This document shows positions 1 to 50,220 of a stretch of DNA of 50,290 nucleotides, piece after piece. The notes under the pieces were generated by a model. It made no database searches, had not been told where the DNA came from, and worked only from the letters and a program-made list of their open reading frames with translations. The translations under genes and the position numbers were made by a program. The stretch's first letter is position 1; every line of letters starts with the position of its first letter. Source of the DNA: Escherichia phage JLBYU07; sequence record OK272485.1, one strand, 5' to 3'.

Positions 1-930
1 TTATAGCAGTGATTCGGGCTTGTAGAGTTTTCTTTCTACGCCCTGTTTAAAATTATCGTTAACAGGCATCATTATGTCAAGCCCTCTTTCCTCTGCCGCG
101 ATTATCACATCACGATCATCTTTCCGGCAGACTACGCGCATTCTTCTTTCTCCTTTATATCTATGCGCAACCATTTCAAGATTTGAAGGAGTAAAACAGG
201 CCCACACCTCTTGACCAGTTGATAAATGAACATGCTGAGAATCAACCCAATCAAGGCACAAATAGATCGTCTTATCTGTGCTACCTGTTTTAACAACAGA
301 TCCGCGCGTGTAGTCGCGAGCTAAAAACCAATCCTTTCCATCCTCATCAATGAAAAGCACGTTACACATTTCATCATCCAGCCCGTCATCATGCACCAGG
401 TGACAAGGTAGCGCGTGAATGTATCGACCATCCTTGACGCCGCAATCATAATGACAATCTTCCGGCGGATATATCCCCTCATAAACGCTTAAAGGTGTGC
501 GATCGAATTTTAATGTTTTTGCCATCACTTTTTCGCAACATTCATGACTTGCCTGTTTCCCGAACGAGTAACCAGAAGAACGCGAAGCGCGTTTGTTTGC
601 TCTGATCCTGTAATCTTGTGGCACTTTTCCGAGGAAGCGACCCAAAATGTTGATGGCCTCGCTGTAAGGTTCGCCAGTTAATTTCATTAACCAACCGATC
701 CCCGTGTCGTTGCCGCATACGTTGCAGATCGCGCCGCCGTCGCCCTCTTCATTTAGCTTATCAGTCCATCTAAAACGATCCTTGCCGCCGCAGTGTGGGC
801 AAGGTTGATGCTTTTTGTTGAAAACATCGCTATGCAGTCCGCAAATGCTTTGTAGTGCTTCACGCCATAACCCCTTCATATATGGCAAAACATCTTCTTT
901 CTGATAGGTCATAAAGTTTTCAGTATTCAT
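1..930 (-). CDS. DNA primase (zinc-ribbon plus TOPRIM-like)
   Basis: 309 aa; zinc ribbon CPHCGG...CNVCG near N-terminus, acidic DxD/E clusters (FIDEDG, RKDDRD); GAGG RBS before ATG at 930; track ORF start at 1008 overlaps upstream gene and lacks RBS. Confidence 0.6.
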   Translation of the reverse strand: MNTENFMTYQKEDVLPYMKGLWREALQSICGLHSDVFNKKHQPCPHCGGKDRFRWTDKLNEEGDGGAICNVCGNDTGIGWLMKLTGEPYSEAINILGRFLGKVPQDYRIRANKRASRSSGYSFGKQASHECCEKVMAKTLKFDRTPLSVYEGIYPPEDCHYDCGVKDGRYIHALPCHLVHDDGLDDEMCNVLFIDEDGKDWFLARDYTRGSVVKTGSTDKTIYLCLDWVDSQHVHLSTGQEVWACFTPSNLEMVAHRYKGERRMRVVCRKDDRDVIIAAEERGLDIMMPVNDNFKQGVERKLYKPESLL

Positions 931-985
931 GGCAAACCTCAATAAAAAAGCCCAGCAAATATTATCATTTCGCTGAGCCTTATCA

Positions 986-1462
986 TTAGCTATTTGTGCT
1001 GTTATCACCTTTGTAGAATCGTCCGCCTGGTTCGTAGTCTGAATTTTTGACTACGCGCAACATCTCGTATTTGTCGCAACGGGTAGTAAGAGGCTTACCG
1101 TTAGAATCAAACCGCAGATCTGGACGACAAAATGATGCGCGGTATCCTTTGCATCCATTATATTTGTAGTCGTTATGCACCTTTTGTGCTCCAGCGGCTG
1201 AAATCATACCACGCTTTCGCCATTGGTTAACGACTTGCTGAGATACGCGTAGACGTCGAGCCATAGCAGGAACACCGCCATAATACTCGATCAGAATATC
1301 CAAGCGAGATTTCAGGCTTGCTTTTACCTCATCTCGCAGGATAAGAAATCCGGTTCGGTGTTTTCGTGGCTTTTTGTCTTTACCTCGTCGCGTTCCGTTG
1401 TTACCGTTAATAGTGCGCTTGTCGATCTCACCCGTAGACACCGCAATTCGTGCATCTTTCAT
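986..1462 (-). CDS. HTH-containing DNA-binding protein
   Basis: 158 aa; GAGGTG RBS; helix-turn-helix-like segment AMARRLRVSQQVVNQWRKRG; basic N-terminus. Confidence 0.5.
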   Translation of the reverse strand: MKDARIAVSTGEIDKRTINGNNGTRRGKDKKPRKHRTGFLILRDEVKASLKSRLDILIEYYGGVPAMARRLRVSQQVVNQWRKRGMISAAGAQKVHNDYKYNGCKGYRASFCRPDLRFDSNGKPLTTRCDKYEMLRVVKNSDYEPGGRFYKGDNSTNS

Positions 1463-1473
1463 CTAGTCACCTC

Positions 1474-1493
1474 ATAGCATTTTTTGTTAAAAC
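1474..1493 (+). promoter_or_regulatory. conserved intergenic box copy (variant ATAGCATTTTTTGTTAAAAC)
   Basis: divergent region between 986-1462 and helicase; antisense copy abuts RBS of minus gene. Confidence 0.6.
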
Positions 1494-1549
1494 AGTTTAT
1501 TGTAATGAGTCTATTATATACTCCAAATGGCATTTTTTAAAGGTTTAAG

Positions 1550-3547
1550 ATGATTCCAAATATCGAAAAACAAATATCAGCGTTAGGCGAGGCAGTAATA
1601 AAAAGCATCCAAGAGCGATTCACGGTTGGCAATATAGTGCCTTATCCTTATCAGTGCGTTGCGTATGCCGAGATCGCAAAGCGCATGAAAAACTATGAGC
1701 ATCCTTTCTTTGTTAAGGCTTCTGTGTCGGCTGGCAAAACATTGATGTTTGCGATGGTTGCGGCGCAATGCCGCAAAATGGGATTGAAAATGATGGTCCT
1801 TGCTCGCCAGGCTGAAATTGTTGATCAGGATTCGGAAGAGATCAGCAATCTTGGCGTGCCAAACTCAATCTATTGCGCCGGACTGAAAACAAAAAGCGCA
1901 TACTTTCCGATCGTGGTCGGTTCTGAGGGCACTGTAGTAAACGGATTGTTTAAGTCGTTAGGTGATTATGTTCCGCACGTTATCGGTATTGATGAATGTC
2001 ACCAGGTGGATTGGGAGGATCTCGCCGACGCGATAGAAAATAATGAATCTTACCAGCAGATGACCACTAAGAAGGATTTGCCTGTACTGATTGGAGAAGA
2101 ACAGCAATTTGATTCCAATGGCGATCCAATGTTCGGAACAGGGCGCACACAGTACACCGTAATAATCATGGAAATGATGCGCAGGTGTCGCGAGGCATAC
2201 GGGCACGAATTGCGAATATTCGGTATGACTGGATCTGAATTTCGCGGCGTTGTTCCAATACTGGTTGAAGATAAGAACAAAAAGGGATTCTGGCGTGAGC
2301 AGGTGACTAACATAGACACAAACTACTTAATCAAATTCGGTTCGGTAGTGCCAACAAACTTCGGCGACGTAGGCGACCTGGGTTATGACCTTTCAGAGTT
2401 CGAAGCCAGTAGCGAGGATGGCGTTTCAGACTTTGACGCTAAAACATTGCGCAAGATGGAAGAAAAGATCCATCAAGACGCAACAATGACACAGAAAATC
2501 ATGGCTAAAGTCCATGAGATATGCAAAGACAGGAACGGAGTTTTAGTTACATGCGCAGGGGAAAGACACTGCAAGGAGGCCGCCGCCGCACTGCCGCCAG
2601 GCGTTGAATACAGGATCATAACTGGCAAGACTGGAGATAATCAGCGTAAAGAGTGGCTGAGGGAGGCATACGAGGGAAAAGTAAAATACATCTTCCAGGT
2701 ACAGGCGCTTACCACTGGCGTTAACGTTCCGTTTTGGGATACTTCGGTAATACTGAGAAAGATAGGATCTCTAACATTGCTTATCCAGCTTTTGGGGCGC
2801 GGTATGCGACTGCTTAAGCAATGGCACATTGAGCAGGGATTCAAGAAAAAAGACCATCTTGTATTGGATTTTGCCGGTACTATGGATGAGTTAGGGGATT
2901 TGTATTTCGATCCAATCCTTGAGCAAGCGCAATTCCAAAAGAGATTTACAAACGGGAAAGAGCCTAAGACTTGTCCGATATGTGGAACGCTAAACAGCTT
3001 TTACGCTCGCCGATGTATGCACGTAGACGATAACGGGAAGAGATGCGAGCATTTTTGGACTTACAGAATTTGCGAGGACCAGGTAGATCCGAGAACGAAA
3101 AAGATAATCAAGCGCGGTTGCGGAACAAAAAACGACGTAGTGGCGAGAGTATGCCGTTGTTGCGATATTTCTCTTGTCGATCCTAACGAGAAGTTAAGCG
3201 GTAAGCACTACACCAAAAACGATTGGTGCAACGTTAAATCTTTCCGCGTTGATATGACGAAAAACCAGAAAGGAATTATTTTTTGCTATGAGCTTGAGGC
3301 CAACGGCGACACGTTCAAGGCATACGAAAGATTTTTCCCTGAGTCAGAAAGCAACATTTGCAGGACGATATGGAGAAAAATAGCATTGCAGCACATACCG
3401 GATCGCAAGATTGCTGGTATGGTGGCGAGCTATAGAAATGCGCGTAAAATAATGTCATACGCTCATCACATCATGCCGCCTGTACGCGTAACGCATCGCA
3501 AAAACGGCAAAGGTGAGGATAACATTGCAAAACGGGAGTTTGTTTAA
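1550..3547 (+). CDS. SF2 (DEAD/DEAH-type) DNA helicase
   Basis: 665 aa; Walker A SVSAGKT, DECH box (GIDECHQ), C-terminal Cys clusters (CPICG, CRCC). Confidence 0.8.
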   Translation: MIPNIEKQISALGEAVIKSIQERFTVGNIVPYPYQCVAYAEIAKRMKNYEHPFFVKASVSAGKTLMFAMVAAQCRKMGLKMMVLARQAEIVDQDSEEISNLGVPNSIYCAGLKTKSAYFPIVVGSEGTVVNGLFKSLGDYVPHVIGIDECHQVDWEDLADAIENNESYQQMTTKKDLPVLIGEEQQFDSNGDPMFGTGRTQYTVIIMEMMRRCREAYGHELRIFGMTGSEFRGVVPILVEDKNKKGFWREQVTNIDTNYLIKFGSVVPTNFGDVGDLGYDLSEFEASSEDGVSDFDAKTLRKMEEKIHQDATMTQKIMAKVHEICKDRNGVLVTCAGERHCKEAAAALPPGVEYRIITGKTGDNQRKEWLREAYEGKVKYIFQVQALTTGVNVPFWDTSVILRKIGSLTLLIQLLGRGMRLLKQWHIEQGFKKKDHLVLDFAGTMDELGDLYFDPILEQAQFQKRFTNGKEPKTCPICGTLNSFYARRCMHVDDNGKRCEHFWTYRICEDQVDPRTKKIIKRGCGTKNDVVARVCRCCDISLVDPNEKLSGKHYTKNDWCNVKSFRVDMTKNQKGIIFCYELEANGDTFKAYERFFPESESNICRTIWRKIALQHIPDRKIAGMVASYRNARKIMSYAHHIMPPVRVTHRKNGKGEDNIAKREFV

Positions 3548-8193: not shown

Positions 8194-8254
8194 AATTTTT
8201 CCTTTTTGGTTGTTTCGTTTCGATGAAACAAATATACCCGACACTAGGCCGGGC

Positions 8255-8275
8255 GTTTTAACAAAAAATGCTATT
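8255..8275 (-). promoter_or_regulatory. conserved intergenic box copy (minus orientation, variant GCAT)
   Basis: followed on the minus strand by the same GCCCGGCCTAGTGTCGGG hairpin seen at 5032. Confidence 0.6.
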
Positions 8276-8390: not shown

Positions 8391-8786
8391 TCATGTGAGA
8401 TTGAATTTACGGCGCAGTGCTTCAAGATCTTGTCTATTAGCTTTTGCCTGGAACAATTCATCATCGCCCATCTCCCCTATTCTAGCCATATCCCTGATCC
8501 AGTCGTTGCGCATACCATCCAGGCTATACAATTCGAATCCGAAAGGCCGCTTTGACGATCCTTTGGACCAGTATTTTCCGCAGACTCCATCTATATAACC
8601 AGCCGTCATCATTCTTGCGCAAAATTCCTTAGATGCAAGGCTGGCGAACATTCGCGGCGTAAGTCCGGCGGCCCGTGCGAGCCGCTCACATTCTCTATGC
8701 TGATAGATAAATTTGGCTATGTGCTGCCTGTTAAACCAGTCGTATGACTCACACCATTTATACAGATCAAGCAAAAACATAATCAT
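8391..8786 (-). CDS. hypothetical protein
   Basis: 131 aa; ATGA-coupled to upstream ATPase gene. Confidence 0.5.
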   Translation of the reverse strand: MIMFLLDLYKWCESYDWFNRQHIAKFIYQHRECERLARAAGLTPRMFASLASKEFCARMMTAGYIDGVCGKYWSKGSSKRPFGFELYSLDGMRNDWIRDMARIGEMGDDELFQAKANRQDLEALRRKFNLT

Positions 8787-10363
8787 CCCAGCAGTATTGG
8801 ATTGACAAAAATAACACCATTAATCACACAAACATAATTTCTTTCTTCCAGCATTGGCAGCAAGTGCCCTTCTATCCTCTTCATTACGCCAGCCTGACCA
8901 ACGAAAGGTTTTACCTTTCTCGCTGATTCGTACAGGGCGCGAATATTCAGGATCCCTTTGTTGGCCTTGCCGTGCCTCGTGATCAATTCAATCAATTTAC
9001 CCATTTCAGCATCATCACCAGCATAACCAGAAGCATTGGCGGCGCTAATGTATGTTTTGCTCAATTCCTGAAACATGATCAACGCCTCTTGCATTGTTTC
9101 CACGTCGATCTCTTTCGACTTCTGCGGGTATCCGGCAGGATTAAACCAGTTACGGATAACATGCAGGACGGAAGCAAGCCTGATCACCTGTTTATCCATT
9201 TTACCAAGCGCACCGCGTAACATTGTATGAGAATACTTTCCTCCGTCTGCAAGATGCGGTTCCATATCCTGGCGAGCAATGTTGAGCACTCGCATAGCTG
9301 AACGGCTTATTTTCAGCGATATATTTGATTCGCTCATGATGTTATGCACCAATTGATAATATTGGGCTTTCAATTCAGAATCCACCGCCTCATAGGTAGA
9401 ATCACCATTTTCATCAATGAATGAGCGACGGCCTAAGAATGATTCCTCGCGGACCAACAAAAAACGCTCACTAACACCGATGCCTCGCGATCCAGCGTCC
9501 ATGATTCCGCTTATCGTTTCATCCTGGGCTATAACGCTCATACATCCAAGCGCGCGAAAACTCATATTATTGTCAGCATTAGCACGGGCAATTGATACGT
9601 GACCATTATCCCACGCCTTAAGCACTAGCTCACTGTTAGTCTTTCTTTCGCTATTTGCATAGGTCAAGCCTAACAGACTGTTAATACTTGTTGCTTCGTC
9701 AGATATTACGGCAAAGTTACCTTGCTTGTTGTTGATTTTCGCCAAGCCTTCTGGAGTTGTATCTGAAACAGGAAAAGTTATATCACACATTTTTTCCAGC
9801 TTTTCCTCCAGATCCTCTTTTTCCTGGTATAGAGATTCCATATCAGCGCCGGATCTTTCGCTTTTCATCTCCTTTGCAAGACCTGCCAGCTTTGCCTGTA
9901 TTTTCTTTCTTTCCTTGCGGCGTTGCTCGTTGATCTTCTCAACTTCCGCAATCATCGGAGCGATAGCCATGCTGTTGATCGCAGATTTACCAGTTGACGG
10001 CGGCTGGCTTGTAACGACGTAAAGCGCAGTCGGCTGATCGGTTCCGTGATAGTCAACCGTAAAACGTCCAAGCATAGCGGCAGAAATGCAGCCGATAAAG
10101 TGCATGTAAGCCGATGATTCAGGGAATTGAACGGATCGCGCAATGCTGCGTGATAACTTGCCGACAACATCAATATCATTACCAAGAGAAATAACGGGGT
10201 AGCGATCGTGACCGCTATTCACATCCTTTACGTCGCCCCAAAAGCTGGACGACTGGCGATAGCCGTTAGCCTGAATTGATACGCGAACTGGTGAGAGGTT
10301 CTGGCTTTCAGCCATAGCGATTATTTGCTGTGGAGTTAATTTGTTCGTTTCTAATGAAAACAT
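8783..10363 (-). CDS. P-loop NTPase, putative replication-associated ATPase (DUF3987-like by inference)
   Basis: 526 aa; Walker A PPSTGKS and Walker B FAVISDE separated by a Lys/Glu-rich coiled-coil insert; AGGAG RBS. Confidence 0.5.
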   Translation of the reverse strand: MFSLETNKLTPQQIIAMAESQNLSPVRVSIQANGYRQSSSFWGDVKDVNSGHDRYPVISLGNDIDVVGKLSRSIARSVQFPESSAYMHFIGCISAAMLGRFTVDYHGTDQPTALYVVTSQPPSTGKSAINSMAIAPMIAEVEKINEQRRKERKKIQAKLAGLAKEMKSERSGADMESLYQEKEDLEEKLEKMCDITFPVSDTTPEGLAKINNKQGNFAVISDEATSINSLLGLTYANSERKTNSELVLKAWDNGHVSIARANADNNMSFRALGCMSVIAQDETISGIMDAGSRGIGVSERFLLVREESFLGRRSFIDENGDSTYEAVDSELKAQYYQLVHNIMSESNISLKISRSAMRVLNIARQDMEPHLADGGKYSHTMLRGALGKMDKQVIRLASVLHVIRNWFNPAGYPQKSKEIDVETMQEALIMFQELSKTYISAANASGYAGDDAEMGKLIELITRHGKANKGILNIRALYESARKVKPFVGQAGVMKRIEGHLLPMLEERNYVCVINGVIFVNPILLG

Positions 10364-13724: not shown

Positions 13725-13778
13725 CTTTAAATCCTCGTTTGTTGTCGATGGGTGTAATATACCATTCAGGAGCACATC

Positions 13779-13800
13779 GTTTTTAACAAAAAGTGCTATT
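13779..13800 (-). promoter_or_regulatory. conserved intergenic box copy (minus orientation)
   Basis: between genes 13800-14063 and 13527-13724. Confidence 0.6.
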
Positions 13801-14063
13801 TAGTCCAGGAATTCGATTTCACGCTCTCCAGTTAACGGATCCACAAGCCAGAATCCGAGCGGTTCGCCGTGAACACCGCCATAGAATCCAAGCGCCGTCA
13901 GATCTTCACCTTTAACAAATACCAGTTTTCCGCTACGGCCTACGTGAGACACGTTAACGATAACCGGAAATGTGCGATCCTTAAATGCAGGACGCAGGGC
14001 GTAACATCCGTTGTTGAGCAAACGTGCTTTGCGCTTAACTGGAATAGGTGCATTAATTTTCAT
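13800..14063 (-). CDS. hypothetical protein
   Basis: 87 aa; AAGGAG RBS. Confidence 0.5.
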   Translation of the reverse strand: MKINAPIPVKRKARLLNNGCYALRPAFKDRTFPVIVNVSHVGRSGKLVFVKGEDLTALGFYGGVHGEPLGFWLVDPLTGEREIEFLD

Positions 14064-14499: not shown

Positions 14500-14753
14500 T
14501 TTTTCTTCTCCTGCAATAAGCAAACATCATTGATAAAATCAGTGCGGCCCTTAATGTTGCTGATGTGGAACGTCTTTTCAGCGTACAGGCCATCACCTTC
14601 AATCACGATCATTACGCGAGTCGGTTTATTCACGGGCGCACATGAAAATAGTGGGCGCACCGGAAGAAATTTAGTAGCCACATCCAGGTTAGCCCTGGCG
14701 GCCCTGCAAAACGCCTCCGCCAGATCCAAATCATTTTCGGTAATCACCGCCAT
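14487..14753 (-). CDS. hypothetical protein
   Basis: 88 aa; TAATG coupling to upstream gene. Confidence 0.5.
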   Translation of the reverse strand: MAVITENDLDLAEAFCRAARANLDVATKFLPVRPLFSCAPVNKPTRVMIVIEGDGLYAEKTFHISNIKGRTDFINDVCLLQEKKKCWM

Positions 14754-15025
14754 TACTTCTTGATCTCCTTACTGATAAATTTCAGCACCTGGCGCAAGAA
14801 AACTTCGTTGTTGATAGTCGCTGGCAATTCTTCTTTCACTTCTTGCGGCAGATAGATATTACCGTGCCAGGTCAAGCAATCGTAGTTAATACGATAAGAG
14901 CAAAGCCACTCGCAATCGTTATCTGCTTCCCATATGCAGAGTTGCAGAACATCGCCAAAATCTTCAACAGTCAGATCCAGACCGTGACGCTTAGCGAAAT
15001 TGAAAGTGGTTTTGCTGATGTTCAT
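14753..15025 (-). CDS. hypothetical protein (first gene of leftward early operon)
   Basis: 90 aa; AGGAG RBS; downstream of divergent control region. Confidence 0.5.
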   Translation of the reverse strand: MNISKTTFNFAKRHGLDLTVEDFGDVLQLCIWEADNDCEWLCSYRINYDCLTWHGNIYLPQEVKEELPATINNEVFLRQVLKFISKEIKK

Positions 15026-15084
15026 TTACTATCTCCTGAGCGGTTCGTTTCGATGTGTGTAATGTACCCGATCAGGTGGCCTGA

Positions 15085-15106
15085 GTTTTAACAAAAAGTG
15101 CTATTT
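15085..15106 (-). promoter_or_regulatory. conserved intergenic box copy (minus orientation)
   Basis: at head of leftward early operon, about 60 nt upstream of gene 14753-15025. Confidence 0.6.
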
Positions 15107-15134
15107 GACGGTTATCGCCAGGATTGCGATCGAA

Positions 15135-15212
15135 ATAATCAAAAGTAATCATTCGTAATCAAATCACGTCAAAATGATGATTGCCTTTGCAAATTTGATG
15201 AGAAAAGTAATC
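15135..15212. promoter_or_regulatory. cluster of TAATCA iteron-like repeats in divergent control region
   Basis: AGTAATCATTCGTAATCAAATCACG ... AGTAATCACGTTTAATCATTGG; four or more TAATCA units. Confidence 0.45.
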
Positions 15213-15659
15213 ACGTTTAATCATTGGTTGCAGGGGAGATAGTGAAACCTTCCCCTCTTGCCTCACTTTTCCGCCTGGCTGTCAGTGGTTGTTGTCTTTT
15301 GTTCACCCCTGTTACCGATTTCAGGCGGCGTGTTTCCGCGCGGTTTTCCGGTGTAGCGAAAACGGAAAAAACAAAAAAAATCCTATATAATACATTGAAA
15401 ATAAAGATTATTTATTTATATATATCTATAATGTTTTCTTTTTGTTCTCACTGTTACAGTGCTTTTTGTTGGGTGTGGTGTGGTTGTGTGTTGGTATATA
15501 TGGATAGTTGCGCGCGCGGCGGATTGCATATGTATATATACTTTTTCCGGCGGATTGCGTTAACAGCGCGAACAGAAAAATAACAGCCCTGAAATCAACA
15601 ACTTGCGCATGATTTTGTAGTTTTTCGATATTGGTAACGTTTTGAATACAACAAAAACA

Positions 15660-15687
15660 TTGACACGCACCAAATAGCTTTTATAAT
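15660..15687 (+). promoter_or_regulatory. near-consensus sigma70 promoter (TTGACA-N16-TATAAT)
   Basis: TTGACA at 15660-15665, TATAAT at 15682-15687; about 30 nt upstream of GGAGG RBS of gene 15719. Confidence 0.6.
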
Positions 15688-15718
15688 GCGCCAACAGTCA
15701 ACAACTGGAGGAAAGGAA

Positions 15719-16183
15719 ATGGAACAGAAGACCACTAAGGACTATTGCGATTGGCTTCGCGAGCTTGGTCGCCGCCTGGCTAGTGGCGATATTGAAGAGT
15801 ATAAAATGTCACTAATTGACCTGGCCGGAATGTTAAGCGGTGACGACTGCTACAAGATCACGCGCAGTTCATCCTACAGCCGGACCATTATCAACCGCGT
15901 TCCAGAAGTAAGGGCCGCAGGTCGGGTAAGCATCAAGGTAGAGGAAACGGAAGATGATAAATTTTACGTTTTCCGCATGGTCCGCGAATCGAAAAGGAAA
16001 ATCATCACGCCAGAAGAATTGCCAGCCATCAAGGCAAGGGCGATCAAAAAGTTTGCCGATCGCTTACTGGCAGCAATCCCGAATATCGTTGACCTGGAAG
16101 GGGATAAACTGGCTGGGGCTTGCGAGGGCGTAAGCCGCTACCAGGATATGATCCGCGAAATCATCAAAGAGGAAGAGCAATGA
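15719..16183 (+). CDS. hypothetical early protein
   Basis: 154 aa from ATG 15719 (GGAGG RBS); track start 15686 lies inside the -10 hexamer. Confidence 0.55.
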   Translation: MEQKTTKDYCDWLRELGRRLASGDIEEYKMSLIDLAGMLSGDDCYKITRSSSYSRTIINRVPEVRAAGRVSIKVEETEDDKFYVFRMVRESKRKIITPEELPAIKARAIKKFADRLLAAIPNIVDLEGDKLAGACEGVSRYQDMIREIIKEEEQ

Positions 16184-44421: not shown

Positions 44422-44476
44422 CTTCAATACTCCTTAGTTGTTGTTGACTGTAACTATACACGATCCGGCAAGCCGA

Positions 44477-44495
44477 GTTTAGCAAAAAGTGCTAC
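44477..44495 (-). promoter_or_regulatory. conserved intergenic box copy (minus orientation, variant)
   Basis: GTTTAGCAAAAAGTGCTAC about 55 nt upstream of lipoprotein gene start. Confidence 0.5.
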
Positions 44496-44864
44496 TTGTT
44501 ATTTTTTGTTTTCCGGTGTTATCTGATTTAAGACGGCGTAAATTTAGCGCAAATTTTAGCCAACATAAGAACAATAAATAATCAATAAAATAGGTATATA
44601 CATATAAAATCAATAGTTTATTTATTTATGTATGTGTATTTGTTTTTTCTTGTTATCTGTGTTTCTTGTGGTTTTGGTTGTTTGTGGTGATTTTTCTTTC
44701 TGAGTATCTGTATGTGCCATCATTCATGTGTATGTATATAATCCGGCGTATCTGAGAGAACAAGGGAACAAGAAAAATAACATATATTAATCATTAACTT
44801 ACGCGTCAAATTTGTTTTATTGCCATCTTAGAACGTTTAGAAAACAGAAAAAACAAAACAACTA

Positions 44865-44892
44865 TTGACTAAATCAACCAAATGGCTACAAT
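44865..44892 (+). promoter_or_regulatory. near-consensus sigma70 promoter (TTGACT-N16-TACAAT)
   Basis: TTGACT 44865-44870, TACAAT 44887-44892; spacer ACCAAATGGC resembles that of promoter at 15660. Confidence 0.55.
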
Positions 44893-44922
44893 GCACACAC
44901 AAAGCAACGAGGAGCATTAAAG

Positions 44923-47449: not shown

Positions 47450-47932
47450 TTACTCCGGCGCAACCTCTCCAACTTCCTCTGCAATCAGTCCGTACCATCC
47501 CCAATCTTTACGGTCGCTTTCACAAGTTGACCGATACCACACAGGACGCATTTCAAGCATCAGATCCGCATATTCATCAATAACCGATTCTACGCTGCGC
47601 TTATAACGAGAAGAGGAAGTTGAGCGTAAAACTTGCGACACTCCAGCATTTGGATCAAGCCATAAGTTTGCTGATTGAGCGGTTGTGTTAATATTAAATA
47701 AATAAAATGCATCGTTACCAGTTAGGGGGTAAAAACTCCCACTATACCTTCCGCTACCCAACTCGGATGATAGATCAGTTTGTTTTAGATACGGTTTCAA
47801 CTTATTGTCAACATCAGTAGTTGATGCTTTTCCGGCAACATCCTGCTTTAGTGTCGAAACATCCTGATTTATCGTAGAAACATCATTTTTCAGCTTCGTT
47901 ATATCACTAGGTATAACAGTTACTGTAGCCAT
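47450..47932 (-). CDS. fibre-like protein with C-terminal intramolecular chaperone (peptidase S74) domain, terminated by in-frame TAA
   Basis: 160 aa; AAGGAG RBS; N-terminal coiled coil; S74 signature SSRYKRSVESV...LEMRPVWYRS...GLIAEEVGEVAPE then TAA. Confidence 0.6.
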   Translation of the reverse strand: MATVTVIPSDITKLKNDVSTINQDVSTLKQDVAGKASTTDVDNKLKPYLKQTDLSSELGSGRYSGSFYPLTGNDAFYLFNINTTAQSANLWLDPNAGVSQVLRSTSSSRYKRSVESVIDEYADLMLEMRPVWYRSTCESDRKDWGWYGLIAEEVGEVAPE

Positions 47933-47944
47933 TTTCCTAACTCC

Positions 47945-48223
47945 TTAAGCCCATTCTCTAATCGGCTGATCTAACTCAACCACGTAGCCGTTAAAAATTA
48001 CGGCATCAAACTTATCATCAATGATTCGCACATTGACGAAATAGCCGTCGTTCTTTCGCGCAATCTCATCGCCATCGTCAGATCGTGCAATTACTGTGTA
48101 AGTATTGCCGATTACATCGAGCAGGATTGCATCCTGAATGGATTCGTTTTCGTTCCATTCAATTTCTTCCAGAAAGGCGGAAAACTCCGCCTTGTCTACA
48201 AATTTCAGTGTTAAATCACGCAT
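47945..48223 (-). CDS. hypothetical protein (tail-fibre operon)
   Basis: 92 aa from ATG 48223 overlapping tail-fibre stop (TAATG). Confidence 0.5.
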   Translation of the reverse strand: MRDLTLKFVDKAEFSAFLEEIEWNENESIQDAILLDVIGNTYTVIARSDDGDEIARKNDGYFVNVRIIDDKFDAVIFNGYVVELDQPIREWA

Positions 48224-50184
48224 TATACAATTTCCCCCAATTGATGATCTGTTAGTGCCTTGTGCCATATACGGAAGTTTCTAACGTGCCCGAAAAGATG
48301 ACGTTCTCCCGTAGTTGTTTGTCCGCCAATCCTTATAGTAGCCGTTGATACTATATATCTCCATTCCGTTTTTGTTTCGCTTGATATTCTGGCATTACTT
48401 ACACAGCAATTTTTGTAATCACTCTTTACTCTCATTCCCATGATCATCTTTTTTAGTTTTGCATTCTCGTAAACCCTTCTGTTTGATCCACCTATATCGC
48501 AATAATGGAATCCATCATTATCGCCCTCGGCAGACCCGAAAGCAAGAATAATTGCCGCACCATATTGATGACCACCAGTATCGAAAACGCGAGGCGCAGC
48601 ATTTGGTGTTCTACTCCAGTTTTTATGAGCCTCCACAAGAATTGTAAACGGCAAATTGTAAAGGTTGTTTTTTATTGGCACTGTAACCATATCGCTTGCC
48701 CTTGTAGTCGGTGACGGACCTGATTGAATATAAGAAGAAGCACAAGACCCCAATTCAACTTGAGGGGTTGACAATTCAATATAATCCCCATCTGAATAAG
48801 CAGACACTGGAGATATTTGAAACTGAGCGTTTACCTTATTTTCTATTGCCTTGAATGTAACAATGGCAATATTCCATCCTGTAACATCATCCGTGTAAAC
48901 CTCAACATTAATTCTGTTTGCAGCACCCCCAGTTTTCTGGACTGAAAGATCCTTAAGTTTTATGTAAACACCTCCAGCGAATGCGATACTCCCAATATCA
49001 GCGCCAGCGGCAAATCTTACCCTCAATCTAACATCTTTATCTGATCTAAATCTGCATGAAGCAGTAACATTTTTTTCATTGCCAGATGTATCAAGGCTGT
49101 GAGCAGAAATAACAGATGCAAGGTTTAGCGCATCTGTTCCGCCAACATTAGACTGATCTGGAGCGAAGCGACCATAAAGAAATCCAAATGAATCTGTATT
49201 CGCTGTCACTTGCACAGAAGCTGAGCAACCCCAACCAGCAGGAGTTGAAGCATTAATCATATGGTTTGTTCTCTGCCCTTCAATCAGCAATCCATCTCTT
49301 TCAAAACGTGGTTCATCAATTGCTGCAACTGTAAAAACACCTGATTTGTTAATGTAAGTAGCGGTTGATGCTCGTTTAAACTTAACTATCTTGTCACCTG
49401 GCATCGTGATCTCATCGTCACCTATAACAATCTTTTTGTATGACGGCGAGAATCCGGTAATCATATCCAGGGAGTCATTAAATGGTATCCACACGTCCGG
49501 CAACGGTTGCAATAAGTCCTTGTAAGGTTCTGCGGCCTGATTTGCGTATTCCTCCGCTTGATCTCGCGCACTTTCAGCTCCTGCCTTTGCAGTGTTCGCA
49601 GCGTCACGCGCGGATTCAGCGCCTTTTCTTGCAGTTTCAGCGCCAGTCTTTGCAGTGTTTGCAGCGTCGCGCGCGGATTCAGCGGCAGCCTTTGCAGTGT
49701 CAGCACCTTTCTTGCTATTCTCTGCATTTGTTGCGCTTGTCTTTGCGTTATTCTCGCTAGTTTTAGCTGCCTTCTGACTTGCTGCGGCTGCGTCAGCATT
49801 TGTCTTTACGTCTTCCTGGATCTTCTGTAGCTTATCCCAATCAAAATCCTTGATGATCTCAATAAATCCAGCAAGCTCCGACTCCTTTCCCTGGTAATAA
49901 CGCAACGTTTCCGCTACGTCTTGCGCAAGACCATCAACCGTTAACGAGTCATGAAGCAAGATCAGGTAATTTGTCTTCTTGACTACCGCGCCGCCAGTAG
50001 TAATTGCGCGAATGCTTGTATCGCTAATCACTTCTGTAATCACAGCAGCTTGCAAAGGTTGAGCAAGAAAGAAAATAGTTGCGCCTGGGCGAATCAAGGT
50101 TAATTGCTCACGCCATTTTGTACCGTAACCAGTTACATAACCTTGCGCGTCCATAGACGCTTGGCCTTGTCTGTAAATCGCCAT
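48223..50184 (-). CDS. side tail fibre protein
   Basis: 653 aa from ATG 50184 (AGGAGG RBS); Ala/Lys/Ser-rich AxxSA repeats (AESARDAANTAKTGAETARKGAESARDAANTAKAGAESARD), Gly/Ser/Thr-rich distal domain. Confidence 0.75.
   Translation of the reverse strand: MAIYRQGQASMDAQGYVTGYGTKWREQLTLIRPGATIFFLAQPLQAAVITEVISDTSIRAITTGGAVVKKTNYLILLHDSLTVDGLAQDVAETLRYYQGKESELAGFIEIIKDFDWDKLQKIQEDVKTNADAAAASQKAAKTSENNAKTSATNAENSKKGADTAKAAAESARDAANTAKTGAETARKGAESARDAANTAKAGAESARDQAEEYANQAAEPYKDLLQPLPDVWIPFNDSLDMITGFSPSYKKIVIGDDEITMPGDKIVKFKRASTATYINKSGVFTVAAIDEPRFERDGLLIEGQRTNHMINASTPAGWGCSASVQVTANTDSFGFLYGRFAPDQSNVGGTDALNLASVISAHSLDTSGNEKNVTASCRFRSDKDVRLRVRFAAGADIGSIAFAGGVYIKLKDLSVQKTGGAANRINVEVYTDDVTGWNIAIVTFKAIENKVNAQFQISPVSAYSDGDYIELSTPQVELGSCASSYIQSGPSPTTRASDMVTVPIKNNLYNLPFTILVEAHKNWSRTPNAAPRVFDTGGHQYGAAIILAFGSAEGDNDGFHYCDIGGSNRRVYENAKLKKMIMGMRVKSDYKNCCVSNARISSETKTEWRYIVSTATIRIGGQTTTGERHLFGHVRNFRIWHKALTDHQLGEIV
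49470..49800 (-). repeat. tandem coding repeats in tail-fibre gene
   Basis: repeated units TTTGCAGTGTT[CT]GCAGCGTC[AG]CGCGCGGATTCAGCG on the plus strand. Confidence 0.65.
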
Positions 50185-50200
50185 TTGTAAAATCCTCCTA

Positions 50201-50220
50201 AATAGCACTTTTTGCTAATG
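50201..50220 (+). promoter_or_regulatory. conserved intergenic box copy (variant AATAGCACTTTTTGCTAATG)
   Basis: antisense to and abutting the AGGAGG RBS of the tail-fibre gene; partial second copy at 50232-50248. Confidence 0.55.

What the first reader, a model, noticed from the sequence alone, without database searches (positions are those of the whole stretch)
15026..15718. Long divergent non-coding control region A with consensus promoter, GT-rich tract and TAATCA repeats
Seen in sequence: about 690 bp without a credible ORF separates the leftward early operon from the rightward early genes. It holds a box copy (15085-15106), at least four TAATCA repeats (15135-15212), the 12-mer GTTTTCCGGTGT, an A-tract, TTTATTTATTTAT, a GT-rich tract (GTTGGGTGTGGTGTGGTTGTGTGTTGG) and a near-perfect sigma70 promoter TTGACA-N16-TATAAT (15660-15687). 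The same ingredients recur in region B (44428-44922). Inference: a primary early control region for host RNA polymerase, possibly also a replication origin or iteron site.
Basis: partly seen in the sequence, partly recalled or inferred. Interest (0 to 1): 0.55.

Follow-up and report, generated by a model that had tools for sequence, protein, structure and literature searches.

The report
T1-like phage packaging, origin-like, promoter hub
This 690-base gene-free stretch of a T1-like coliphage genome holds a known repeat element, the likely DNA-packaging start site, a duplicated module that looks like a replication origin, and a strong early promoter, and it gives a testable candidate for the still unknown origin of this phage family.

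Summary
The window is a complete Warwickvirus (Drexlerviridae, T1-like) genome. Region 15026-15718 is non-coding and holds every listed motif. It aligns with region B far above chance (z = 27).

It has three parts.

(1) 15086-15106 is the published 21-nt Drexlerviridae intergenic repeat, facing the leftward operon.

(2) 15107-15290 occurs only in region A. It carries five TAATCA copies in 10-bp phase. It lies where position 1 of the T1 and TLS genome records falls, and that position marks their mapped pac site. So these repeats are more likely packaging (small terminase) sites than replication iterons.

(3) 15291-15718 is a roughly 430-bp module paralogous with region B and conserved across the family. 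Phased TGT-hexamer repeats, whose last bases differ by lineage, flank the most AT-rich DNA of the genome. An IHF-like site follows, then a consensus sigma-70 promoter.

The early-promoter reading is well supported. The upstream part of the module has the anatomy of an iteron-plus-unwinding-element origin, like P4 ori/crr, but no binding protein was identified and function is untested. The phage encodes a P4-alpha-like primase and an MCM-like helicase. RNA gene, protein gene and DnaA-dependent origin readings were all rejected.

The parts
15026..15085 (-). 5' untranslated leader and ribosome-binding site of the leftward gene 14753..15025
   Evidence: Sequence read. About 64 bp including the box recur upstream of other genes (13737-13801 and 8214-8275, about 78% identity).
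15086..15106 (-). 21-nt Drexlerviridae intergenic direct repeat (AAATAGCACTTTTTGTTAAAA on the minus strand), facing the leftward operon
   Evidence: At least 12 copies in the genome, 0 expected, always oriented with the local genes. Identical to TLS DR1 and matches the consensus aaATAGCACnnnTTGnTAAAA.
15107..15290 (.). Block found only in region A: candidate pac (packaging initiation) region
   Evidence: Absent from region B in the alignment. Position 1 of the T1 and TLS records, which is the pac-defined start, lies in the equivalent block. TGATT/AATCA is enriched in this block in all nine lineages examined, 39 observed against 5.5 expected. The block is 97.4% identical in phage atuna although the adjacent module is only 62.9% identical.
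15136..15161 (+). Three TAATCA repeats in 10-bp phase
15208..15223 (+). Two TAATCA repeats in 10-bp phase
15233..15255 (.). GGGGAG...GTGAAAC...CTTCCCC element at the boundary between the block and the module; function unknown
   Evidence: A GGGGA..G.GAAAC sequence is conserved at the same place in W011D, L061/L063 and T1.
15290..15335 (+). Left set of phased TGTT repeats; includes TTGTTCACC, which contains the P4 type 1 iteron TGTTCACC
   Evidence: TGTT at 15290, 15300, 15310 and 15331. Phased pairs are counted.
15343..15354 (+). 12-mer GTTTTCCGGTGT, shared only with region B
15366..15434 (.). A-tract plus AT-rich core (candidate DNA unwinding element); holds TATATAAT and TTATTTATTTAT
   Evidence: Together with its counterpart in region B, this is among the most AT-rich 100-bp windows of the genome (80%). 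It is the segment most widely conserved across genera.
15432..15494 (+). Middle set of TGTT repeats (15432, 15443, 15452, 15467, 15489) running into the GT-rich tract
   Evidence: The same position and polarity are kept in all aligned modules. T1 and L034 have TGTAAC and TGTAAT there instead.
15495..15558 (.). Alternating purine-pyrimidine stretch and GGCGGATTGC direct repeat (15518, 15549)
   Evidence: 15525-15541 is the longest alternating purine-pyrimidine run in the genome. The second longest is at the homologous place in region B.
15560..15586 (-). Right set of TGTT repeats on the opposite strand (TAACAGCGCGAACAGAAAAATAACAG)
   Evidence: Conserved GTGAACA..GAACA..AACA block.
15593..15605 (+). 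IHF-like site AATCAACAACTTG
   Evidence: One of 7 strict WATCAANNNNTTR matches in the genome. AATCA(A/T)NNACTTA is kept at the same place in most aligned A and B modules; the atuna, L065 and L075 type has CATTGATTTATAAGGA there instead.
15648..15687 (+). A-rich UP-like stretch and the sigma-70 early promoter TTGACA-16-TATAAT
   Evidence: 12 of 12 match. TTGAC is invariant in 19 of 19 modules. It corresponds to TLS P01.
15707..15721 (+). Ribosome-binding site GGAGGAAAGG and ATG (15719) of the first rightward early gene (DUF7174)
44428..44922 (+). Region B: a paralogous module without the pac block, upstream of the recE-like, erf and ssb genes; promoter TTGACT-16-TACAAT at 44865-44892

Best explanation
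Region A is a composite cis-acting hub with three separable parts.

(1) At the left edge is one copy of the family's 21-nt intergenic repeat. It points into the leftward operon and probably belongs to that operon's promoter or control system. Its function is unknown in the literature.

(2) A 184-bp block occurs only in region A. It has 3 + 2 TAATCA repeats in 10-bp phase and an inverted TGATGATTG. It is most likely the pac region, where the P22-gp3-like small terminase assembles and the first headful cut is made.

(3) A roughly 430-bp module is duplicated as region B. Its right end is a consensus sigma-70 promoter that host RNA polymerase uses immediately after infection. Its upstream 370 bp most likely acts as one of two replication origins. 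Sets of TGT-hexamer repeats at 9-11 bp spacing lie in opposite polarity on either side of the most AT-rich and most easily deformed DNA of the genome. An IHF-like bend site lies beside them. A phage protein, not identified here, would bind the repeats. Divergent transcription from the flanking promoters would supply negative supercoiling to open the AT core. The MCM-like helicase and P4-alpha-like primase would then start synthesis.

Shown: the sequence anatomy, its significance, its conservation, the paralogy with region B, and the positional match to the T1 and TLS genome starts. Inferred: terminase binding, origin activity, the role of IHF, and the supercoiling step.
For: Identity and map: 98.9% identical to Warwickvirus phages.

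Non-coding: the internal ORF is not conserved.

A/B paralogy: z = 27.

Pac block: it is absent from region B. T1 record position 1 is the start of the annotated 2.8-kb terminal repeat. TLS position 1 is the pac site mapped by submolar restriction fragments. Both fall 160-195 bp right of the leftward gene, inside the TGATT-rich block. The SU57 paper places pac in the same untranslated region. TAATCA occurs 5 times against 0.18 expected. TGATT/AATCA occurs 39 times against 5.5 expected over nine lineages. The small terminase matches GP3_package.

Promoter: 12 of 12 match; conserved in 19 of 19 modules; TLS P01 and P51 correspond.

Origin-like module: 11 of the genome's 17 TGTT pairs with 9-11 bp spacing lie in A and B, which make up 2.4% of the genome. 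TGTT occurs 15 and 16 times against 4.3 expected, with the same strand pattern in A and B. A and B hold the most AT-rich 100-bp windows and the two longest alternating purine-pyrimidine runs of the genome. The architecture is kept family-wide while the hexamer changes by lineage: TGTTC or TGTTA, TGTAAC in T1, TGTAAT in L034. The third early promoter has no such module, so the module is not needed for early promoters in general. The module is exchanged as a unit: in atuna it is 62.9% identical against 97.4% for the pac block. P4 ori and crr use TGTTCACC iterons in pairs 9-11 bp apart around AT-rich DNA, and the window has TTGTTCACC. The primase is homologous to the P4 alpha primase domain (E = 2e-15). 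The helicase model (pLDDT 87) matches MCM subunits.
Against: No experiment on this phage exists. The pac assignment is by position only. Restriction mapping in T1 and TLS has a resolution of perhaps 100-200 bp, and TLS position 1 was finally chosen by resemblance to the P22 pac sequence.

The repeated core of the module is short (TGT plus three variable bases).

No binding protein was identified. The recognition helix of the conserved Cro-like regulator does not track the hexamer classes. The C-terminal domain of the helicase is conserved across classes. No homologue of the P4 alpha origin-binding domain is encoded.

GC skew follows gene direction and gives no independent support. There are no DnaA boxes. 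The TLS authors reported finding no iterons anywhere in that genome.
Confidence: 0.5

Rival explanations
1. The shared module is purely transcriptional. It would be an extended upstream control region of the two strongest early promoters. The TGT-hexamers would be operators for a phage regulator, for example the conserved Cro-like protein encoded at 986..1462, that shuts off or times early transcription. The AT-rich and curved DNA plus IHF would act as an UP-like enhancer or an H-NS target. No replication role.
For: The module always ends in the conserved promoter. A Cro/YdaS-like regulator is a core gene of the family. The A-rich stretch next to the -35 hexamer and an IHF-like site are typical promoter accessories. 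No initiator was found.
Against: The third early promoter works in an 88-bp intergenic space without any module. About 370 bp of conserved upstream architecture, with repeat sets up to 370 bp from the -35 hexamer, is far more than known sigma-70 control regions need. The regulator's recognition helix does not co-vary with the hexamer class.
Confidence: 0.3
2. The TAATCA repeats are replication iterons or operators for the leftward operon rather than terminase sites, and pac lies elsewhere, for example in the AT core or in the small terminase gene as in P22.
For: The pac position in T1 and TLS is known only at low resolution and was refined by sequence resemblance. The small terminase is P22-gp3-like, and in P22 pac lies inside gene 3 (from memory). 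The repeats lie 30-115 bp upstream of the leftward 21-nt repeat.
Against: The block is unique in the genome, as a pac site must be, whereas the origin-like features are duplicated. T1 and TLS position 1 both lie inside the equivalent TGATT-rich block and not in the AT core, which is about 200 bp further right. The TGATT/AATCA enrichment is family-wide in this block only.
Confidence: 0.15
3. The region encodes a structured non-coding RNA or a small protein.
For: Some GenBank records annotate hypothetical proteins here. TATAAT-like hexamers lie inside the AT core.
Against: No Rfam family and no tRNA. RNAalifold gives no consensus structure in any 120-column window on either strand (SCI 0). The ORFs differ in position, frame and strand between lineages.
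Confidence: 0.03

Closest known systems
Satellite phage P4 ori and crr (type 1 iterons TGTTCACC bound by the alpha primase-helicase)
   Same: Two separate cis elements per genome carry the same short repeat. The repeats lie in pairs or triplets 9-11 bp apart, in both orientations, around AT-rich DNA. The window even contains TTGTTCACC. The primase is homologous to the alpha primase domain.
   Different: No homologue of the alpha SF3 helicase or its C-terminal origin-binding domain is encoded. The helicase is a separate DUF3987, MCM-like protein. The repeat core is shorter and varies by lineage. Each module is fused to an early promoter. Function is untested.
Published T1 and TLS genome features: pac at record position 1, 21-nt intergenic direct repeats, promoters P01 and P51 (PMC11447400; NC_005833)
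   Same: Same genomic position and gene context. The 21-nt repeat is identical. The promoters are homologous. The pac-proximal DNA is TGATT-rich.
   Different: Those papers do not describe the duplicated 430-bp module or its phased repeats. They state that no iterons were found and that the origin is unknown. The repeat of the pac block differs by genus: TAATCA here, ATTATTCC/GGAATAA in T1 and Hanrivervirus, and AGACCGATTGGTCT in TLS.
Phage pac sites built from phased short repeats, such as P1 pac (TGATCA/G hexamers, 4 + 3, flanking the cut) and SPP1 pacL/pacR (recalled from memory, not checked here)
   Same: There are 3 + 2 hexamer repeats in 10-bp phase on either side of a roughly 45-bp spacer, and the site is unique in the genome.
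   Different: The hexamers have no GATC, so Dam control as in P1 is not expected. The cut site is not mapped in this phage.
Iteron plus AT-rich origins of lambda and of staphylococcal pathogenicity islands; the paired SPP1 origins oriL and oriR (recalled from memory)
   Same: Repeat sets flank an unwinding element. Repeat sequence is lineage-specific at fixed positions. Two copies lie far apart in one genome. There is adjacent transcription.
   Different: The cognate initiator is not identified. The origin is not inside or next to an initiator gene.

Membership tests
Sigma-70 (host RNA polymerase) promoter | -35 TTGACA and -10 TATAAT hexamers with 16-18 bp spacing | tested here: met
   12 of 12 match with a 16-bp spacer at 15660-15687.
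Sigma-70 (host RNA polymerase) promoter | Conservation of the hexamers at the same position in relatives | tested here: met
   TTGAC is invariant and TAnAAT is kept in 19 of 19 modules. Corresponds to TLS P01 and P51.
Sigma-70 (host RNA polymerase) promoter | Transcript 5' end mapped downstream of the -10 hexamer early in infection | not testable with these tools
   No transcriptome of a T1-like phage was found in the library.
Drexlerviridae 21-nt intergenic direct repeat | Match to aaATAGCACnnnTTGnTAAAA, oriented with transcription, about 76 nt upstream of a start codon | tested here: met
   15086-15106 on the minus strand is identical to TLS DR1. It lies 61-81 nt from the ATG at 15025. All copies are oriented with the local genes.
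Headful pac site | Position homologous to an experimentally mapped pac site in relatives | tested here: met
   T1 and TLS position 1 fall in the equivalent block. This holds at region level only.
Headful pac site | Unique in the genome, with repeated short motifs suited to small terminase binding | tested here: met
   The block is absent from region B. TAATCA occurs five times in phase.
Headful pac site | Physical DNA end or submolar fragment at this position in this phage | not testable with these tools
   No read data. GenBank records that end inside the AT cores (ityhuna, BEC3) are more likely assembly breaks.
Iteron-type replication origin (P4, lambda, SaPI kind) | Several copies of a short repeat in helical phase | tested here: met
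   11 of the genome's 17 phased TGTT pairs lie in A and B. The lag-9 periodicity of the middle set counts related sequences against mononucleotide shuffles, so its size is inflated.
Iteron-type replication origin (P4, lambda, SaPI kind) | Adjacent AT-rich unwinding element | tested here: met
   The most AT-rich 100-bp windows of the genome are at 44551 (83%) and 15351-15371 (80%).
Iteron-type replication origin (P4, lambda, SaPI kind) | A cognate initiator whose DNA-binding part co-varies with the repeat | tested here: inconclusive
   Neither the helix-turn-helix regulator nor the C-terminal domain of the helicase tracks the hexamer classes. Other early proteins were not tested. The DUF7174 model was too poor to use.
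Iteron-type replication origin (P4, lambda, SaPI kind) | Origin activity (bubble arcs, copy-number peak, autonomous replication) | not testable with these tools
   GC skew follows gene orientation and is uninformative.
P4 ori/crr system specifically | An alpha-type protein with SF3 helicase and C-terminal origin-binding domain | tested here: not met
   Only the primase domain is homologous. BLASTP and tblastn find no helicase or origin-binding-domain match.
DnaA-dependent origin | DnaA boxes TTWTNCACA | tested here: not met
   None in A or B, even with a relaxed pattern.
Structured non-coding RNA | Rfam match or conserved secondary structure | tested here: not met
   No Rfam hit. RNAalifold SCI is 0 on both strands.

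The most novel reading that the evidence does not exclude
The two paralogous modules (15291-15659 and 44495-44864) are the long-sought replication origins of T1-like phages. Each would be a bidirectional origin in which lineage-specific TGT-hexamer iterons flank an unwinding element. They would be opened with help from divergent early transcription and IHF, and served by an MCM-like AAA+ helicase and a P4-alpha-like primase. This would be a bacterial-virus origin system with an archaeal or eukaryotic-type helicase fold and two origins per 50-kb genome.
Probability: 0.35. Interest if true: 0.7.

Novelty: new member of a known kind. Interest (0 to 1): 0.5.

Why it matters
T1 is one of the seven classic T phages, yet its origin of replication has never been located. 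The most recent TLS paper states that no iterons were found, and it lists the function of the 21-nt repeat among the open questions. This analysis separates the packaging block from a duplicated, family-wide conserved module and gives base-level candidates for the origin(s), the unwinding element and the repeats. Each can be tested directly by marker-frequency sequencing, gel-shift assays and deletion mutants. It also helps annotation of the many Drexlerviridae genomes: several records place spurious hypothetical proteins in this region. It matters as well for engineering or rebooting these phages, where pac, origin and early promoters must be kept intact.

Tried and rejected
- **Coding ORF.** The 119-aa TTG ORF is not conserved in other lineages.
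- **Non-coding RNA.** No Rfam family, no tRNA and no consensus structure.
- **DnaA boxes.** None found. GATC clustering as in oriC is also absent; the modules lack GATC altogether.
- **GC skew as origin evidence.** It simply follows gene direction.
- **Cro-like regulator as repeat reader.** Its recognition helix groups TLS with T1, whereas the hexamer class groups TLS with the window.
- **Helicase C-terminal domain as repeat reader.** It is conserved across hexamer classes.
- **Homologue of the P4 alpha origin-binding domain or helicase.** None found.
- **Sequence search of the helicase against solved structures.** Nothing found with the single sequence or with the profile.
- **Structure of the DUF7174 early protein.** The single-sequence model was unusable (pLDDT 47).
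- **Literature.** Searches for a T1-like transcriptome, for precise termini of Warwickvirus or Hanrivervirus, or for an origin gave nothing specific.
- **GenBank records that start or end inside the AT cores (ityhuna, BEC3, LL5).** I considered them as physical ends. I judged them to be assembly breaks or a copied T1 numbering convention.
- **Co-variation of the small terminase with the repeat type of the pac block.** Loci were fetched, but I did not pursue this because phylogeny confounds the test.

Full report
**What the window is.** The 50,290-base window is a complete, circularly permuted genome of a T1-like coliphage (Drexlerviridae, Tempevirinae, Warwickvirus). Bases 14900-15850 are 98-99% identical to phages JLBYU19, tonn and tinuso. 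Region A (15026-15718) lies between two gene sets. To the left is a leftward operon that starts at 15025 and runs on to the methylase and DUF3987 helicase genes. To the right are the rightward small early genes (ATG at 15719), which lead to the terminase and structural genes. Region B (44428-44922) lies between leftward lipoprotein-type genes and the rightward recE-like exonuclease, erf and ssb genes.

**Check of the observation.** Every listed feature is present.
- The box is at 15086-15106.
- TAATCA occurs five times, all on the plus strand (15136, 15146, 15156, 15208, 15218), against 0.18 expected.
- GTTTTCCGGTGT occurs only at 15343 and 44508.
- The GT tract is at 15468-15494.
- TTGACA-16-TATAAT at 15660-15687 is a 12 of 12 match.
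- The 13-mer TTTATTTATTTAT is exact only in region B. Region A has TTATTTATTTAT.
- The longest internal ORF (15224-15583, TTG start) has no counterpart in nine other lineages, where ORFs differ in position, frame and strand. The region is therefore non-coding, although several GenBank records annotate hypothetical proteins in it.
- The similarity to region B is far beyond composition. The local alignment score is 103, against 23 +/- 3 for dinucleotide shuffles (z = 27) and at most 57 for random genome segments.

**Part 1, the box.** The box is the 21-nt intergenic direct repeat described for TLS. Its consensus is aaATAGCACnnnTTGnTAAAA. [quoted passage not shown] The repeat is also seen in T1, Rtp and Rogue1, and its function is unknown. 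The copy in region A is identical to TLS DR1 and faces the leftward operon. At least 12 copies occur in the window against 0 expected, each oriented with the local genes. About 64 bp including the downstream leader are repeated as well.

**Part 2, a block found only in region A.** The A/B alignment shows that 15105-15288 has no counterpart in region B. In every region A examined, a block of 150-250 bp sits between the box and the shared module. This holds for W011D, Hanrivervirus, 2019SD1, three metagenomic lineages, TLS and T1. The repeats in the block are genus-specific, but TGATT/AATCA is always enriched: 39 observed against 5.5 expected from shuffles, and 7 in the window against about 1 at the genome-wide rate.

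The T1 reference record starts 162 bp to the right of the leftward gene, at the beginning of its annotated 2.8-kb terminal repeat. The TLS record starts 195 bp to the right. Both positions are inside this TGATT-rich block. For TLS, pac was mapped from a submolar HindIII fragment and then fixed by resemblance to the P22 pac sequence. The SU57 paper also places pac of T1-like phages in this untranslated region. The small terminase matches the P22 gp3 family.

In the window the five TAATCA copies form 3 + 2 sets in exact 10-bp phase, separated by about 45 bp that contain an inverted TGATGATTG. I therefore read this block as the pac region, not as replication iterons. The assignment is by position and anatomy only.

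**Part 3, the shared module.** The last 430 bp or so of region A correspond to region B. I aligned 19 modules, A and B copies from different genera. The same order of blocks appears in all:
- a left pair or triplet of TGTT repeats;
- CCGGCGTAAAT;
- AACA..GAACA on the other strand;
- cTATATAATAcat;
- an AT core (..TTATTTAT..TATATATCTAT);
- three TGTT repeats;
- a variable GT-rich stretch;
- an alternating purine-pyrimidine block;
- CCGGCGTAAAT again;
- GTGAACA..GAACA..AACA on the other strand;
- AAATCAa..ACTTAc (replaced by CATTGATTTATAAGGA in the atuna, L065 and L075 type of module);
- an A-rich stretch;
- TTGAC(a/t) and TAnAATGC.

Several counts support this architecture.
- TGTT pairs with 9-11 bp start-to-start spacing occur 17 times in the genome on both strands, and 11 of them lie in A and B, which make up 2.4% of the sequence.
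- TGTT occurs 15 and 16 times in the two modules against 4.3 expected, with the same strand pattern in both.
- The most AT-rich 100-bp windows of the genome are at 44551 (83%) and 15351-15371 (80%).
- The two longest alternating purine-pyrimidine runs are at homologous places, 15525-15541 and 44725-44740.
- One of only seven strict IHF consensus matches in the genome is at 15593-15605. Its counterpart in region B (44789) is a relaxed match, and AATCA(A/T)NNACTTA is kept there in most of the aligned lineages.

**Behaviour across the family.** The region upstream of the exonuclease gene keeps this architecture in all 43 Drexlerviridae loci fetched, including T1 and TLS. The repeated hexamer changes by lineage: TGTTC or TGTTA in Tempevirinae, TGTAAC in T1 region B (region A of T1 also has CGATTAACA three times in tandem), and TGTAAT in lineage L034. 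Its positions and polarity stay the same.

The core of window region A finds its best distant matches in region B of Tlsvirus phages. In phage atuna the box and pac block are 97.4% identical to the window, but the module is only 62.9% identical. The module is therefore an exchangeable unit with its own boundary near 15292.

**What the module does.** The promoter reading is solid as far as sequence can show. The TLS authors found only three intergenic sigma-70 promoters. These are the equivalents of A (P01), B (P51) and the regulator-primase operon (P57). The third one lies in the window in an 88-bp intergenic space with no module. The upstream 370 bp are therefore not a general requirement of early promoters.

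The anatomy of those 370 bp is that of an iteron-type origin: phased short repeats in opposite polarity around the most easily opened DNA, a bend site, and flanking divergent transcription. The closest checked example is satellite phage P4. Its record annotates type 1 repeats TGTTCACC in both ori and crr, in pairs 9-11 bp apart around AT-rich DNA. The window contains TTGTTCACC at 15299-15307.

The window primase (1..1008, minus strand) is homologous to the primase domain of P4 alpha (E = 2e-15), and the T1 record notes the same relationship. The helicase (8783..10363, minus strand, DUF3987) gave a confident model with a 27-sequence alignment (pLDDT 86.8). Its best structural matches are all MCM2-7 subunits (E between 3e-6 and 6e-4, TM about 0.35). 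It also has a small C-terminal helix-strand domain that looks like a winged helix.

**What argues against the origin reading.** No binding protein was identified. The recognition helix of the family-wide Cro/YdaS-like regulator groups TLS with T1, whereas the hexamer class groups TLS with the window. The C-terminal domain of the helicase is conserved across hexamer classes. No homologue of the alpha SF3 helicase or its origin-binding domain is encoded. The system is therefore not a member of the P4 ori/crr family, although it may work like it. GC skew only mirrors gene direction. There are no DnaA boxes. The TLS paper states that no iterons were found, and the SU57 paper that no origin was found. 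The main rival, a purely transcriptional control region with operators for a phage regulator, cannot be excluded.

**Other readings tested and rejected.** An RNA gene is unlikely: there is no Rfam family, no tRNA, and RNAalifold finds no consensus structure in any window on either strand. A protein gene is ruled out by the lack of ORF conservation.

**Verdict.** The origin or iteron idea is plausible but was attached to the wrong repeats.
- Already in the literature: the 21-nt repeat, pac at region level, and the predicted promoters.
- New here: the separation of a pac block found only in region A from a duplicated, family-wide, exchangeable module, and the phased, lineage-specific TGT-hexamer sets around the AT core, which give a concrete candidate for the unknown origin(s) of T1-like phages.

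My confidence is about 0.85 for the promoter, 0.6 for pac in the A-only block, 0.4 for origin function, and about 0.5 for the composite statement.

Noticed in passing
window 8783-10363 (minus strand): The DUF3987 helicase of this T1-like phage gives a confident model (pLDDT 86.8). Its best PDB matches are all MCM2-7 subunits (E down to 3e-6, TM about 0.35), and it has a small C-terminal domain that looks like a winged helix. Sequence searches against solved structures find nothing.
   Followed up: partly
window 1-1008 (minus strand): The 335-aa primase (Zn ribbon) is homologous to the N-terminal primase domain of P4 alpha (24% identity, E = 2e-15). It lacks the alpha helicase and origin-binding parts.
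   Followed up: yes
window, at least 12 sites (e.g. 1475, 3964, 5013, 8253, 11088, 13778, 15083, 16450, 18013, 21103, 29943, 33695): The 21-nt intergenic repeat is always oriented with the local genes. About 64 bp including the downstream leader are repeated too. A -10-like hexamer (TACATT, TATAGT or CATAAT) lies 21-22 nt downstream of the TTGnTA part in several lineages, which is too far for a normal -35/-10 pair.
   Followed up: partly
window 1462-1550: A third divergent intergenic space of only 88 bp holds a rightward 21-nt repeat and a leftward TTTAAA-17-TATAAT promoter homologous to TLS P57. It drives the Cro-like regulator and primase genes and has no AT-rich module.
   Followed up: partly
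window 986-1462 (minus strand): A Cro/YdaS-like helix-turn-helix protein (158 aa) is encoded just upstream of the primase. It has a strongly conserved basic N-terminus (STGEIDKRTINGNNGTRRGKDKK) and a C-terminal GYRASFCRPDLRFDSNGKPL motif. tblastn finds it in 849 phage records.
   Followed up: partly
L056 (phage atuna) 701-1378 compared with window 15026-15718: There is a sharp mosaic breakpoint near window 15292. The box and pac block are 97.4% identical, while the module and the first downstream gene are replaced by another variant (62.9% identity).
   Followed up: yes
window 15129-15718 and 44466-44922: The genome has about 302 GATC sites (one per 166 bp) and encodes a Dam methylase, yet both modules contain no GATC at all.
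   Followed up: no
window 15233-15255: A GGGGA..G.GAAAC element, an imperfect hairpin in the window, is conserved at the boundary between the pac block and the module in several genera and in T1. No function is evident.
   Followed up: no
GenBank records matched: 15-18 records named 'Campylobacter phage' (about 47-50 kb, unannotated) and one named 'Streptococcus phage MBBL140' carry this coliphage-type region. T1-like phages are known laboratory contaminants, so these may be mislabelled or contaminant genomes.
   Followed up: no
records MN850582 (ityhuna) and MN158217 (BEC3); window equivalents 15431 and 44633: Two independent genome records end or start within a few bases of homologous positions just after the AT cores of regions A and B. 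This is probably an assembly or coverage break in very AT-rich DNA, but a physical discontinuity was not excluded.
   Followed up: partly
window 47450-47932 and 48223-50208 (minus strand): The 661-aa ORF has no Pfam match. It is followed by a 160-aa ORF with an endosialidase-chaperone domain, so the pair looks like a side tail fibre with its chaperone rather than a replication gene.
   Followed up: no
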